Shown here in pieces: positions 1 through 6,000 of a stretch of DNA of 64,000 nucleotides. A program made the position numbers. The stretch's first letter is position 1. Each line of letters opens with the position of its first letter. The DNA is from Escherichia coli (lineage in GTDB: Bacteria; Pseudomonadota; Gammaproteobacteria; Enterobacterales; Enterobacteriaceae): NCBI RefSeq assembly GCF_048403405.1, contig NZ_CP183129.1. The stretch is one strand, 5' to 3'.

Positions 1-3000
1 GAAGCACCTGATTATCGCTTCTCGCTGGCTAATGAGCGTACTTTTCTGGCGTGGATCCGTACCGCACTAGGATTTCTGGCGGCGGGGGTTGGGCTTGACC
101 AACTTGCGCCAGATTTCGCCACGCCCGTCATTCGCGAACTGCTGGCGTTGTTGTTGTGTCTGTTTTCCGGCGGGTTAGCGATGTATGGCTACTTGCGCTG
201 GTTACGCAATGAAAAAGCGATGCGTCTGAAAGAGGACCTGCCCTATACCAACAGCTTATTAATCATCAGCTTAATATTGATGATCGTGGCGGTGATCGTC
301 ATGGGACTGGTGTTGTATGCCGGATAGCCGCAAAGCCAGACGCATTGCCGACCCAGGGCTGCAGCCGGAGCGCACATCACTGGCGTGGTTTCGTACCATG
401 CTGGGCTACGGCGCGTTGATGGCGTTGGCTATCAAACACAACTGGCACCAGGCGGGCATGTTATTCTGGATTTCGATTGGCATCCTCGCCATCGTGGCGC
501 TGATCCTCTGGCACTACACCCGTAATCGCAATTTAATGGATGTCACGAATAGCGATTTTTCCCAATTTCACGTAGTCCGTGACAAATTTTTGATCTCCCT
601 CGCGGTGTTATCTCTCGCAATACTGTTTGCTGTAACGCATATACATCAACTTATCGTATTTATTGAGAGAGTCGCATGACAGGAAGTCAGGTCATTGATG
701 CTGAAGAGGACAGGCATAAACTGGTTGTAGAGTACAAGGATGCTCTGCAACCTGCCGATTTTTATCACAATTTCAAACAACGGGGTATCCGCTCCGTACA
801 GCTCATTCCCCATCTTGAATTTGATGACCGGGGCGATCTGACGGCCGCTTCGGTGACAGCAGAGCTGTGGGGGAAATTTTTAATTGCCCTGTTTGAGTGT
901 TGGGTGCGGGCAGATATCAGTCGTATCTCGATTGAGCTTTTTGACGCCACCTTACAAAAATGGTGTGGCAGCGAAAACCCGCAACCGCGCCGTGGCTGCC
1001 AGGCGTGCGACTGGCATCTGCTGTGTCCGCACGCTCGGGAGGAGATGCCAGACAGCGTGCTTTGTGCGGGCTATCAGGCGTTTTATTCTTACTCTGCGCC
1101 GCATATGCGGGTGATGCGTGATCTGATAAAGCAGCATCGTTCTCCCATGGAGCTGATGACGATGCTGCGGTGACGTGAGCTTAAACGGGCTGCCCCTGAT
1201 GCGACATCCGCGTCGCCAGCGGTAGCCAGCACAGCACGATCAACAATCCCATTAAGGTCATCAACAACCCCAGGCTGCCCTGACCGGTTTGCGGCAACAT
1301 CGCAGAGAGCGACGCCAGCACGCCGGAACCAATGTTTTGTAGACCGCCGACCAGCGCGCCAGCCGTGCCCGCCAGGAAGGGGAACGGTTCCATCGCGCCG
1401 CTGGTCGCCAGCGGAAACAGCATCCCGGCACCGAAAAAGAACAGCGCGGCGGGAACGAGCAGCGTCCAGACATTCATCACGCCAAACCAGTCGGGGATCC
1501 ACATCAGCAAGCCAGCCAGCAGGCAGCAGATAACCGACTGCCACATCAACGTTGAGAAGCGTTTATTAGGACGTCCGGCAAACCATGCCCCAAAAAATGC
1601 CGCCGGAATCGGCAGAATAAACAAAATACTGACCGTCATACTGCTCAGCCCTAATACCGCGCCCATCAGCACGCCGGAGCAGGCTTCAAAGGCGGCAATC
1701 CCGGCCAGACCGCCAATCAGCATCAGCAAATAACAGTTAAAACCGCTGTTACCGAAAAGCGTTTTATAACTGGTAAGCAGGCGTGTGCGCGGTGTGTCGA
1801 CCGGACGTGTTTCCGGCATCCAGCGGGCCATACTGAAGGTCACACCGGCGCAAAGTACCAACAAAAAGAGATAACAGGCGCGCCAGTTCCACATCGTATC
1901 CAGCAGACCACCGATTAGCGGTGCGAGCAACGGACTGACAAGAATCCCCATGTTTAACAAGCTGTTAGCGTGGCGCAACTGTGTCCGTTCATATAAATCA
2001 CGCGGCAAAGTACGCGCCATTACACCGCCAACGCCGGTGCCCATGCCCTGCATCGCGCTGGCGGCAATCAATACCGTCAAACTGGAGGTCGTGACCGCGA
2101 CCAGCGTTGCCAGCATAAAAATGGACATTCCGACGAGGATCACCGGTCGGCGACCGACACGGTCGGAAATTGGGCCATAAAACAGCTGTGAGACACCGTA
2201 AGTCAGCAGATAAGCGCCCATTACGCTCTGCACCGCCCCTTCACGGACGTTGAGATCGCGCGCCATATCGGCAATAGCTGGAATATAAATGGTTTGCGCC
2301 ATCTGACCGACGGCCACGAGTAATACCAACATCAATAACAAATTGACGTTTCTATGCCTTTTCATTATCACGGATGCTTTTATAAAAATAATTAGAATAA
2401 GTCACTACGCATTCCCATAAATGCGGGAGAGGAATCTATCACATTGATAAATGTTAGCCAGATATACGCCAGGAATGGGGAATTGTTTAGCGGCAGAATA
2501 TGTAAACAAAAGCGGCAATAAATGTTGCCGGGAGGGATGGTAGGGCGGATAAGATGCATCAGCATCGCATCCGACACCAACCCGCACGCTAAATATGAAA
2601 GGGGAGCGGTTACCCGCTCCCCTTTGGTGCGACTTGAATCTGAATTACTTCAGGTATTTCAGAACAGCATCAAGCAGTTGCAGTGCTGCAACAATGAGTT
2701 TGAGGATAAGAATGGCGATATCCACCAGGCTCATACGCGTCTCCTGTGGTTCAGGAGCACTGCCAGCTGACGTACCTTTCCGCTGCCTGTTGCCAGCTGT
2801 TGTGCACGCGGTATCTCAAGGAGAAACGTTGTGCTCGTTGACATAACACAGTGTGCTCACGCGGGGTTAAGGCGCTGACGGCACCACCCGTTTCAGCCAG
2901 GACTTAGTGCGCCGGGTAACGATGCGGCCCCCGCATAACACATTGCGTACAGTGATATTATAGAAGTTTACTGTATAAATAAACAGTAATGTTTGGACAA

Positions 3001-6000
3001 AACGCAAACTGTGATCGATACTCAACTATGCACTAATTACGTCAAAATTCGTGCCGAAATTGCGCGTTCTGCGCGGAACACGTATACTTTCTGTGTTGAC
3101 ATAATACAGTGTGCTTTGCGGTTACCAGCCGCGGGCGGCTGACGAAACCTCGCTCCGGCGGGGTTTTTTGTTGTGCACAGAAAACCCCCAGCTAGGCTGG
3201 GGGTTCCGGAAAGCTTTCAGCTTTAAGCCAGTTATTAAAACCCCTTTTGATTTGTTAAAACACCTTGCGGTCTGGCAACTGCAAGTGTCAAACAAGAAAT
3301 CGAAAGGGGGTCCCAATGGGGAACGAAAAGAGCTTAGCGCACACCCGATGGAACTGTAAATATCACATAGTTTTTGCGCCAAAATACCGAAGACAGGTGT
3401 TCTACAGAGAGAAGCGTAGAGCAATAGGCAGTATTTTGAGAAAGCTGTGTGAGTGGAAAAGTGTACGGATTCTGGAAGCTGAATGCTGTGCAGATCATAT
3501 CCATATGCTTGTGGAGATCCCGCCCAAAATGAGCGTATCCGGCTTTATGGGATATCTGAAAGGGAAAAGCAGTCTGATGCTTTACGAGCAGTTTGGTGAT
3601 TTGAAATTCAAATACAGGAACAGGGAGTTCTGGTGCAGAGGGTACTACGTCGATACGGTGGGTAAGAACACGGCGAAGATACAGGATTACATAAAGCACC
3701 AGCTTGAAGAGGATAAAATGGGAGAGCAGTTATCGATTCCCTATCCGGGCAGCCCGTTTACGGGCCGTAAGTAACGAAGTTGGATGCAAATGTCAGATCG
3801 TGTGCGCCTGTTAGGGCGCGGCTGGTAAGAGAGCCTTATAGGCGCATTTGAAAAACCTCCGGCTATGCCGGAGGATATTTATTACCTGCAGTACAGTACA
3901 AAACGTGATCAACCCCTCAATTTTCCCTTGCTGAAAAATTTTCCATTGTCTCCCCTGTAAAGCTGTGCTTGTATAAATATTGTTAAACACAAAACCAACA
4001 AGGTCCCCAATGACTACTTCCATGCTCAACGCAAAACTACTACCAACTGCGCCATCCGCCGCAGTGGTCGTCGTGCGTGTGGTGGTGGTCGTCGGCAATG
4101 CGCCGTAGGGACTGGAACAACACACGATTCCAAAACCCCGCCGGCGCAAACCGGGCGGGGTTTTTCGTTTAAGCACCTCCCGGAAAGTCGGCCCAGAAGA
4201 AAAGGACTGGAGCATGGCAAGTTCGGGCACAACATCGACGCGTAAGCGCTTTACCGGCGCAGAATTTATCGTTCATTTCCTGGAACAGCAGGGCATTAAG
4301 ATTGTGACGGGCATTCCGGGCGGTTCTATCCTGCCTGTTTACGATGCCTTAAGCCAAAGCACGCAAATCCGCCATATTCTGGCTCGCCATGAACAGGGCG
4401 CGGGGTTTATCGCTCAGGGAATGGCGCGCACCGACGGTAAACCGGCGGTCTGTATGGCCTGTAGCGGACCGGGGGCGACTAACCTGGTGACCGCCATTGC
4501 CGATGCGCGGCTGGACTCCATCCCGCTGATTTGCATCACTGGTCAGGTTCCCGCCTCAATGATCGGCACTGACGCCTTCCAGGAAGTCGACACCTACGGC
4601 ATCTCTATCCCCATCACCAAACACAACTATCTGGTCAGACATATCGAAGAACTCCCGCAGGTCATGAGCGATGCCTTCCGTATTGCGCAATCAGGCCGCC
4701 CTGGCCCGGTGTGGATAGACATTCCTAAGGATGTGCAAACGGCCGTTTTTGAGATTGAAGCACAGCCCGCGGTGGCAGAAAAAGCCGTCGCGCCCGCCTT
4801 TAGCGAAGAAAGCATTCGTGACGCAGCGGCAATGATTAATGCTGCCAAACGCCCGGTGCTTTATCTGGGCGGTGGTGTGATCAATGCGCCTGCGCGAGTG
4901 CGTGAACTGGCGGAGAAAGCGCAACTGCCTACCACCATGACTTTAATGGCGCTGGGCATGTTGCCAAAAGCGCATCCGCTGTCGCTGGGTATGTTGGGGA
5001 TGCACGGTGTGCGCAGCACCAACTATATTTTGCAGGAGGCGGATCTGCTGATTGTTCTCGGCGCGCGTTTTGATGACCGGGCGATTGGCAAAACCGAGCA
5101 GTTCTGCCCGAATGCCAAAATTATTCATGTCGATATCGACCGCGCAGAGCTGGGTAAAATCAAGCAGCCGCACGTAGCGATTCAGGCGGATGTTGATGAC
5201 GTGCTGGCGCAGCTGATCCCGCAGGTGGAAGCGCAACCGCGTGCAGAGTGGCACCAGTTGGTGGCGGATTTGCAGCGCGAATTCCCGTGTCCAATCCCGA
5301 AAGCGTGCGATCCGTTAAGCCATTACGGCCTGATCAACGCCGTTGCCGCCTGTGTCGATGACAATGCGATTATCACCACCGATGTGGGTCAGCATCAGAT
5401 GTGGACGGCGCAGGCTTATCCGCTCAATCGCCCACGCCAGTGGCTGACCTCCGGCGGGCTGGGCACGATGGGCTTTGGTCTGCCTGCGGCGATTGGCGCG
5501 GCGCTGGCGAACCCGGATCGCAAAGTGTTGTGCTTCTCCGGCGACGGCAGCCTGATGATGAATATTCAGGAGATGGCGACCGCCAGTGAAAATCAGCTGG
5601 ATGTCAAAATCATTCTGATGAACAACGAAGCGCTGGGGCTGGTACATCAGCAACAGAGTCTGTTCTACAAGCAGGGCGTTTTTGCCGCTACCTATCCGGG
5701 AAAAATCAACTTTATGCAGATTGCCGCCGGATTCGGCCTCGAAACCTGTGATTTGAATAACGAAGCCGATCCGCAGGCTGCATTGCAGGAAATCATCAAT
5801 CGCCCTGGTCCGGCGCTGATCCATGTGCGCATTGATGCCGAAGAAAAAGTGTACCCGATGGTGCCGCCAGGTGCGGCGAATACTGAAATGGTGGGGGAAT
5901 AAGCCATGCAAAACACAACTCATGACAACGTAATTCTGGAGCTCACCGTTCGCAACCATCCGGGCGTAATGACCCACGTTTGTGGCCTTTTTGCCCGTCG

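What the first reader, a model, noticed from the sequence alone, without database searches (positions are those of the whole stretch)
2837..3170. Direct 21-nt repeat that explains IstR-1/tisAB antisense pairing
GTTGACATAACACAGTGTGCT (2837-2857, inside the tisAB 5' region) and GTTGACATAATACAGTGTGCT (3095-3115) are direct repeats on the plus strand. tisAB is transcribed from the minus strand and the downstream copy from the plus strand, so the two RNAs are complementary over 21 nt (one G-U). This fits the described trans-encoded IstR-1 antitoxin, and lets the sRNA be located without annotation. The LexA box at 2969-2988 lies between the two.
Basis: partly seen in the sequence, partly recalled or inferred. 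Interest (0 to 1): 0.35.

Follow-up and report, generated by a model that had tools for sequence, protein, structure and literature searches.

The report
Known tisB/IstR-1 toxin–antitoxin pairing site

Summary
GTTGACATAACACAGTGTGCT (2837-2857) and GTTGACATAATACAGTGTGCT (3095-3115) are the only two matches in 64 kb, with 0 expected by chance.

Copy 1 lies in the 5' UTR of the minus-strand tisAB mRNA, about 100 nt upstream of the tisB ribosome-binding site. Copy 2 is the 5' end of plus-strand IstR-1: Rfam istR scores 147.5 bits, and K-12 IstR-1 maps to 3097-3169. A LexA box (2969-2988) lies between the copies. The RNAs form a 21-bp duplex with one G·U (-33.5 kcal/mol).

In 23 loci from Escherichia, Salmonella, Citrobacter and Leclercia, 99% of pair cells are standard pairs. 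Two positions show compensatory double changes, and pairing stops sharply at the block edges.

The literature already reports "21 nt of complementarity" and the mechanism. IstR-1 covers the ribosome standby site of the processed +42 mRNA, and RNase III cleavage gives the inert +106 form.

One caveat: RefSeq starts IstR-1 two bases inside the repeat (73 nt, against about 75 nt from Northern blots).

Side observations:
- a rare IS200 insertion directly after the istR terminator
- a conserved third partial copy in the +1 to +41 leader
- the tisA start codon lying inside the repeat

Novelty: already known. Interest: low.

The parts
2598..2625 (-). Intrinsic terminator hairpin of the tisAB mRNA (AAAGGGGAGCGG/CCGCTCCCCTTT)
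   Evidence: Perfect 12-nt inverted repeat I7. On the minus strand a U-rich run (UUUCAUAUUU) follows it.
2645..2734 (-). tisB coding sequence, 29-aa membrane toxin MSLVDIAILILKLIVAALQLLDAVLKYLK (the N2S variant)
   Evidence: ORF; Pfam PF13939 TisB_toxin at 37.6 bits against a cut-off of 25; RefSeq annotation in identical DNA of strain TUM14771. N2S is the dominant E. coli variant (PMC11264685).
2740..2745 (-). tisB Shine-Dalgarno AGGAGA (plus strand TCTCCT)
   Evidence: Read from the sequence. Matches the RBS AGGAGA listed in PMC11264685 Table 1.
2731..2844 (-). tisA ORF (37 codons). Its AUG (2842-2844) lies inside repeat copy 1. It is probably not a real gene.
   Evidence: ORF. No ATG-initiated ORF in this frame in Citrobacter or Leclercia (one Citrobacter locus has a different, longer one). 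The literature reports no evidence of translation.
2837..2857 (-). Repeat copy 1: IstR-1 target and single-stranded ribosome standby site in the tisAB 5' UTR (mRNA 5'-AGCACACUGUGUUAUGUCAAC-3'), 92-117 nt upstream of the tisB SD
   Evidence: 19/21 columns are invariant across 22 loci. The mechanism is described in PMC6690012.
2858..2909 (-). Highly conserved leader segment (about +42 to +93), corresponding to the 5' structure element of the standby site
   Evidence: 43/52 columns are invariant, with mean identity 0.96. A 5' structure element is required for standby (PMC6690012). The assignment to those coordinates is my inference.
2910..2950 (-). 5'-most ~41 nt of the primary (+1) tisAB transcript, removed on activation. 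It contains the third partial repeat copy (2934-2945).
   Evidence: +1 at about 2950 is inferred from the -10 box and from +106 falling inside the duplex. Predicted pairing of nt +9 to +22 with the 5' half of the target is.
2957..2962 (-). tisAB promoter -10 TATAAT (plus strand ATTATA)
   Evidence: Sequence. Same hexamer as listed in PMC11264685 Table 1.
2969..2988 (.). LexA box TACTGTATAAATAAACAGTA, between the divergent tisAB and istR-2 promoters
   Evidence: unique site, 0 expected by chance. 13/20 columns are invariant across genera.
2994..3022 (+). istR-2 promoter (-35 TGGACA, 17-nt spacer, -10 GATACT)
   Evidence: Promoter scan. The hexamers are identical to PMC11264685 Table 1.
3030..3169 (+). 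IstR-2 (140 nt, SOS-induced long form)
   Evidence: K-12 RefSeq feature mapped onto the window. Rfam istR covers 3040-3169.
3060..3088 (+). istR-1 promoter (-35 TTGCGC at 3060-3065, 17-nt spacer, -10 TATACT at 3083-3088), 6 nt upstream of repeat copy 2
   Evidence: Sequence. The hexamers are identical to PMC11264685 Table 1. Conserved across genera.
3095..3115 (+). Repeat copy 2: 5' antisense tail of IstR-1 (GUUGACAUAAUACAGUGUGCU)
   Evidence: The first 12 nt are unpaired in the IstR-1 MFE and centroid folds. Pairing is conserved and co-varying.
3095..3169 (+). IstR-1 antitoxin sRNA (75 nt; RefSeq places the 5' end at 3097, giving 73 nt)
   Evidence: About 75 nt by Northern (PMC2515195). The fold has z = -2.8.
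3144..3170 (+). Shared intrinsic terminator of IstR-1 and IstR-2 (10-bp stem plus U-tract)
   Evidence: Terminator scan. Rfam structure.

Best explanation
This is the chromosomal tisB/istR-1 type I toxin-antitoxin locus of E. coli. The two 21-nt direct repeats are the two halves of its antisense interaction.

Because tisAB is transcribed leftward and istR rightward from a shared intergenic region, a direct repeat in the DNA yields complementary RNAs. LexA bound at 2969-2988 keeps tisAB off. After DNA damage the primary (+1) mRNA is made but is translationally inert. Removal of its first 41 nt gives the +42 form, in which the copy-1 sequence is single-stranded and serves as a ribosome standby site about 100 nt upstream of the structured tisB RBS.

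Constitutively made IstR-1 pairs through its free 5' tail (copy 2) across that site. This excludes the 30S subunit and protein S1. RNase III then cuts the duplex to give the inert +106 mRNA, so TisB is made only when tisAB mRNA outnumbers IstR-1.

Shown here: the repeat, gene identities, strands, promoters, LexA box, duplex stability, and cross-genus conservation with covariation of the pairing. Taken from the literature: processing, standby, RNase III cleavage and phenotype. Inferred: +1 at about 2950.
For: - The repeat is unique and non-random.
- TisB ORF and Pfam hit.
- Rfam istR at 147.5 bits.
- K-12 IstR-1 and IstR-2 map to 3097-3169 and 3030-3169.
- The LexA box is unique in the window.
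- The promoter hexamers are identical to published ones.
- The 21-mer duplex is -33.5 kcal/mol. Cofolding IstR-1 with the +42 mRNA recovers the helix with a ddG of about -28 kcal/mol.
- The IstR-1 5' tail is unpaired in its own fold.
- In 20 distinct sequences from 4 genera, 99.0% of 420 pair cells are standard pairs, against 19-48% in slid registers. Two pairs have changes on both sides: A-U to G-C at position 7 and U-A to C-G at position 16. In 0/500 shuffles did the covariation score reach the observed value.
- Pairing ends abruptly at both edges of the block.
- Copy 2 lies in a full-length Rfam istR hit in 9/9 sampled loci.
- Both copies are more conserved than their immediate outer flanks.
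- The literature reports 21 nt of complementarity (PMC4147584) and the standby/RNase III mechanism (PMC6690012).
Against: Nothing contradicts it, but there are minor frictions.

- The RefSeq 5' end of IstR-1 is 2 nt inside the repeat.
- Simple thermodynamic folding reproduces the published opening of the target on +1 to +42 processing only weakly. Unpaired probability goes from 0.32 to 0.41-0.47. The published structure includes a pseudoknot, which these tools do not model.
- Three Citrobacter loci carry an A·C mismatch at position 7, and one carries C·A at position 21, so the duplex is not perfect everywhere.
- The covariation rests on few independent events.
- No expression data exist for this strain.
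Confidence: 0.97

Rival explanations
1. The two copies are a passive DNA-level relic, from a small tandem duplication or from gene conversion between repeats, and their RNA complementarity is incidental.
For: Both copies are in direct orientation only 258 nt apart. Identical changes in both copies (position 7 in six loci, position 16 in one) could in principle arise by gene conversion as well as by compensatory selection.
Against: - The 80-nt flanks on either side show no similarity beyond shuffles (fraction of shuffles at or above the observed score 0.73 and 0.28), so there is no larger duplicated unit.
- The block keeps sharp edges and near-invariance across four genera while neighbouring sequence diverges. 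For example, 3089-3094 has identity 0.64 and the 2751-2836 leader 0.53. A neutral relic would not behave this way.
- Copy 2 sits exactly at a promoter-defined 5' end of a conserved sRNA.
- Published genetics and biochemistry show the pairing is functional.
Confidence: 0.02
2. The repeats act at the DNA level, either as paired protein-binding sites or as promoter -35 elements, since each contains the perfect sigma-70 hexamer TTGACA.
For: TTGACA is present at 2838-2843 and 3096-3101.
Against: - No acceptable -10 hexamer lies 16-18 nt downstream of either TTGACA, and the promoter scan did not call them.
- Ten of the 14 differing cells between the copies are C in the tisAB copy against T in the istR copy. 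That is silent at the RNA level as G·U but would be a change in a DNA operator.
- No known regulator is reported to bind there.
Confidence: 0.01
3. The functional antisense partner is the longer, LexA-controlled IstR-2, which also contains copy 2, and not IstR-1.
For: IstR-2 (3030-3169) contains the whole 21-nt block whatever the exact IstR-1 5' end is. In K-12 the complementarity would extend to 22 nt, with T at the equivalents of both 2836 and 3094.
Against: - The literature states that IstR-2 does not repress tisB translation (PMC11264685).
- In the predicted IstR-2 fold the copy-2 segment is partly buried in a hairpin, whereas it is a free 5' tail in IstR-1.
- In this window position 2836 is C, so the extra pair is lost.
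Confidence: 0.02

Closest known systems
tisB/istR-1 type I toxin-antitoxin system of E. coli K-12 (Vogel 2004; Darfeuille 2007; Romilly 2019)
   Same: It is the same locus. The flanking genes are the same (emrD-ysdE-tisB-istR-ivbL-ilvB). There are only 12 substitutions over 771 aligned nt. The promoters, LexA box and 21-nt complementarity with the same single G·U are identical.
   Different: - TisB has S instead of N at residue 2, the common natural variant.
- Position 2836 is C instead of T, so the possible 22nd pair, relevant to IstR-2 only, is lost.
- There are two substitutions in IstR stem-loop 1 (3133, 3138).
- A 711-bp IS200 is inserted just after the istR terminator.
Other divergently encoded enterobacterial type I systems: shoB/ohsC, zorO/orzO, dinQ/agrB
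   Same: The architecture is the same. A small hydrophobic toxin has a long 5' UTR, and a divergently transcribed sRNA carries a short block (about 18-30 nt) of perfect complementarity to that UTR, so the DNA carries a direct repeat (PMC4147584, PMC2887945). dinQ is also LexA-controlled.
   Different: The toxins and sRNAs have unrelated sequences. Here both Pfam and Rfam assign the parts specifically to TisB and istR.
hok/sok-type cis-antisense type I systems
   Same: An RNA antitoxin blocks toxin translation by base pairing, RNase III cleaves the duplex, and mRNA processing is needed for activation.
   Different: Sok is encoded on the opposite strand of the same DNA, with full overlap and no repeat, and it acts through a leader ORF (mok). 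IstR-1 is encoded separately and blocks a distant standby site.

Membership tests
tisB/istR-1 type I toxin-antitoxin locus | A 29-aa hydrophobic TisB toxin ORF | tested here: met
   ORF at 2645-2734 (-). Pfam PF13939 at 37.6 bits against a cut-off of 25. RefSeq names it tisB in identical DNA.
tisB/istR-1 type I toxin-antitoxin locus | An istR sRNA gene (Rfam RF01400) divergent from tisB, with a nested IstR-1 promoter and a shared terminator | tested here: met
   Rfam at 147.5 bits against a gathering score of 45, full-length model. K-12 features map to 3030/3097-3169. -35 TTGCGC, -10 TATACT and a terminator are present.
tisB/istR-1 type I toxin-antitoxin locus | About 21 nt of complementarity between the IstR-1 5' end and the tisAB 5' UTR, about 100 nt upstream of the tisB RBS | tested here: met
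   21 nt with one G·U. The target lies 92-117 nt upstream of the SD at 2740-2745. Conserved and co-varying in 4 genera. Literature value: 21 nt.
tisB/istR-1 type I toxin-antitoxin locus | A LexA operator controlling tisAB (and istR-2) in the intergenic region | tested here: met
   TACTGTATAAATAAACAGTA at 2969-2988, unique in the window. It lies beside the tisAB -10 (2957-2962) and upstream of the istR-2 -35 (2994-2999).
tisB/istR-1 type I toxin-antitoxin locus | The +1 mRNA is closed and the +42 mRNA exposes the standby/target region | tested here: inconclusive
   Predicted folds have +1 nt 9-22 pairing with the 5' half of the target (P about 0.6-1.0). Mean unpaired probability rises only from 0.32 to 0.41-0.47 on removal of 41 nt. 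The +1 coordinate is inferred, and the pseudoknot is not modelled.
tisB/istR-1 type I toxin-antitoxin locus | In vivo expression of both RNAs, RNase III cleavage of the duplex (+106), TisB toxicity and rescue by IstR-1 | not testable with these tools
   Known for K-12 from the literature only (PMC6690012, PMC4147584).

The most novel reading that the evidence does not exclude
The conserved third partial copy in the first 41 nt of the primary transcript (2934-2945; mRNA CAAUGUGUUAUG) might be more than a by-product of the quasi-palindromic target. It could be a functional target mimic, forming the strand that locks the standby site in the +1 mRNA and possibly also acting as a decoy or first-contact site for the IstR-1 tail. 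In the six loci (Leclercia and some Citrobacter) where both main copies changed A to G, it was rewritten. The A·C-mismatched Citrobacter loci would then be intermediates of a three-way co-evolution.
Probability: 0.08. Interest if true: 0.3.

Novelty: already known. Interest (0 to 1): 0.07.

Why it matters
As biology it adds nothing new. The IstR-1/tisAB 21-nt interaction and its standby-site mechanism have been published since 2004-2007 and refined since. Its value is as a positive control for the scan, because a reader with no tools located an sRNA antitoxin and its target correctly from a direct repeat flanking a LexA box. The cross-genus table produced here is a modest independent confirmation that the pairing, and not the sequence as such, is under selection. 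It shows compensatory A-U to G-C and U-A to C-G changes, G·U-compatible single changes, and sharp block edges.

Tried and rejected
1. Plain RNAduplex of IstR-1 against the leader and against tiles of the whole window. It over-extends the helix because intramolecular structure is ignored, and shuffled targets already give about -57 kcal/mol. I therefore used only the 21-mer energy and the cofold.

2. Accessibility of the target in the +1, +42 and +106 forms for four assumed +1 positions. The trend goes in the published direction but is weak, so I did not use it as support.

3. A larger ancestral duplication around the repeat. Flank alignments are no better than shuffles, so I rejected this.

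4. TTGACA inside each copy acting as a -35 element. No matching -10 exists, so I rejected this.

5. The extra pairs beyond the 21 bp suggested by cofold (IstR 3116-3123 with about 2858-2866). The ungapped register is unpaired in all genera and the flanking sequences are not conserved between genera. I treat these as a modelling artefact or an Escherichia-specific feature.

6. Of the 24 loci from the genome scan, L021 (a 243-nt contig labelled Bacillus hominis) and L005 (locus cut before istR) could not be used.
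Full report
**1. The observation**

The two 21-mers are at exactly the stated coordinates on the + strand: 2837-2857 GTTGACATAACACAGTGTGCT and 3095-3115 GTTGACATAATACAGTGTGCT. A degenerate search allowing 3 mismatches finds only these two sites in 64 kb, and none appeared in 100 dinucleotide-preserving shuffles. They differ at one position, 2847 C against 3105 T.

**2. What surrounds them**

- On the minus strand there is a 29-codon ORF at 2645-2734, MSLVDIAILILKLIVAALQLLDAVLKYLK. It hits Pfam TisB_toxin above threshold, and RefSeq annotates it as tisB in 100%-identical DNA.
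- It is preceded by AGGAGA (2740-2745) and followed by a perfect terminator hairpin (2598-2625).
- On the plus strand Rfam's istR model matches 3040-3169 end to end at 147.5 bits, against a gathering score of 45.
- The K-12 record annotates IstR-1 (73 nt) and IstR-2 (140 nt). A base-by-base mapping, with 12 substitutions in 771 nt, puts them at window 3097-3169 and 3030-3169.
- The published promoter hexamers (PMC11264685) are all present. For istR-1: -35 TTGCGC at 3060-3065 and -10 TATACT at 3083-3088, 6 nt before copy 2. For istR-2: TGGACA and GATACT within 2994-3022, also found by the scan. For tisAB: -10 TATAAT on the minus strand at 2957-2962.
- The LexA box at 2969-2988 is the only such site in the window.
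- From the -10 box I infer tisAB +1 at about 2950. That places copy 1 at about +94 to +114, with the published +106 RNase III end inside it.

**3. The pairing**

Since tisAB is read leftward and istR rightward, the direct repeat gives complementary RNAs. The mRNA reads 5'-AGCACACUGUGUUAUGUCAAC-3' and IstR reads 5'-GUUGACAUAAUACAGUGUGCU-3'. This is 21 bp with one G·U and a predicted energy of -33.5 kcal/mol.

IstR-1 folded alone leaves its first 12 nt free, followed by two hairpins (z = -2.8). Cofolding with the +42 mRNA recovers the helix with a net gain of about 28 kcal/mol.

**4. Comparative test**

I scanned one genome per species with a degenerate tisB coding pattern, which is independent of the RNA pairing region. 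This returned 24 loci from Escherichia, Salmonella, Citrobacter and Leclercia. Both copies could be extracted from 22 of them, giving 23 loci with the window. Copy 2 lies in a full-length Rfam istR hit in all 9 loci tested.

On 20 distinct sequences:
- 99.0% of 420 pair cells are standard pairs, against 19-48% when the register is slid.
- 16 pairs never vary.
- 2 pairs vary on one side only, always as C in the tisAB copy against T in the istR copy, which gives G·U.
- 2 pairs change on both sides: position 7 A-U to G-C in Leclercia and part of Citrobacter, and position 16 U-A to C-G in one Citrobacter.
- No shuffle reached the observed covariation score.

Pairing stops abruptly at both ends of the block in every lineage. 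The T that produces the G·U at position 11 is specific to Escherichia. Exceptions are an A·C mismatch at position 7 in three Citrobacter loci and a C·A at position 21 in one. The number of independent events is small, so this is corroboration and not proof. The flanks of the two copies are not similar, so the repeat is a discrete functional block and not part of a larger duplication.

**5. Mechanism (from the literature)**

- The +1 mRNA is inert.
- Removal of 41 nt yields the +42 mRNA, whose single-stranded region about 100 nt upstream of the RBS is a 30S/S1 standby site.
- IstR-1 pairs across it and RNase III cleavage gives the inert +106 mRNA (PMC6690012).
- Reviews state '21 nt of complementarity' (PMC4147584).
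- IstR-1 is about 75 nt and IstR-2 about 140 nt (PMC2515195).

My folds agree qualitatively. In the +1 RNA, nt +9 to +22 pair with the 5' half of the target. The change in predicted accessibility is modest, so I rate that feature inconclusive.

**6. Verdict**

Both the observation and the interpretation are correct, and the finding is already known in every respect. The only refinement is that RefSeq starts IstR-1 at 3097, two bases inside the repeat.

**7. Seen in passing**

- An IS200C copy (3171-3881) sits 1-3 nt after the istR U-tract. It has the Rfam STnc490 5'-UTR element and an intact tnpA, and only about 20 of 5,426 complete E. coli genomes share the junction.
- A third partial copy lies at 2934-2945.
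- The tisA AUG lies inside copy 1, and that ORF is not conserved outside Escherichia.
- The leader segment 2858-2909 is almost invariant.

Noticed in passing
window 3171-3881: A 711-bp IS200C element is inserted 1-3 nt after the istR terminator U-tract, between istR and ivbL. It has the left-end hairpin and 5' UTR (Rfam STnc490, 143.4 bits, 3183-3306) and an intact tnpA (3316-3774, Pfam Y1_Tnp). The element is absent from K-12 and most E. coli. Only about 20 of 5,426 complete genomes share the junction, for example PCN033, TUM14771 and MS 69-1. The IstR sequence itself is untouched. Any effect on termination or read-through is untested.
   Followed up: partly
window 2934-2945 (mRNA about +6 to +17): A third, partial copy of the repeat (CATAACACATTG) lies in the 41-nt segment removed on mRNA activation. 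It is exact in 16 of 23 loci and has one change in 1 more. It is absent in exactly the 6 loci (Leclercia and some Citrobacter) where both main copies carry A to G at position 7. There the segment is rewritten but still complementary to the region next to the target. Predicted folds pair it with the 5' half of the IstR-1 target in the +1 mRNA. The resemblance may simply follow from the target being quasi-palindromic (CACAGTGTG).
   Followed up: partly
window 2731-2844 (-), start codon 2842-2844: The AUG of the 37-codon tisA ORF lies inside the 21-nt IstR-1 target. Outside Escherichia there is no ATG-initiated ORF in that frame in all but one locus (Citrobacter R56 has a different, longer ORF). 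The AUG becomes ACG where position 7 is G, and many Citrobacter and Leclercia loci have a ~34-nt deletion around 2800-2836. This argues that tisA is not a conserved coding gene.
   Followed up: partly
window 2858-2909 (-): The leader segment immediately 5' of the target in the mRNA (about +42 to +93) is nearly invariant across four genera, with 43/52 invariant columns. That is a higher mean identity than the tisB coding sequence itself. It probably corresponds to the published 5' structure or pseudoknot element of the standby site.
   Followed up: partly
window 2730 (tisB codon 2): TisB here starts MSL..., whereas K-12 has MNL.... This N2S form is reported to be the dominant natural E. coli variant (85%) and somewhat more toxic at low induction (PMC11264685).
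   Followed up: yes
L011, L012, L025 (Citrobacter sp. R56, Awk 4, NCU1), repeat position 7: In these loci the tisAB copy has G while the istR copy keeps A, giving an A·C mismatch in the duplex. These are possible intermediates on the way to the G-C pair seen in Leclercia and other Citrobacter. Whether repression is weakened in them is unknown.
   Followed up: no
L021 (NZ_BOQD01000672.1, 243 nt): A 243-nt contig in an assembly labelled Bacillus hominis matches the enterobacterial tisB coding pattern. It is most likely contaminating enterobacterial DNA in that assembly.
   Followed up: no
window 2447-2521 (+): The small protein gene ysdE, annotated in RefSeq for identical DNA of strain TUM14771 and in K-12, lies between emrD and the tisB terminator.
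   Followed up: no
window 3851-3944 (-) and 4123-4184 (-): Sub-threshold Rfam hits (Ysr202, P6, STnc310) all fall on GC-rich terminator-like hairpins, at the IS200 right end and in the ivbL/ilvB leader region. I regard them as generic hairpin matches and not as genes.
   Followed up: no
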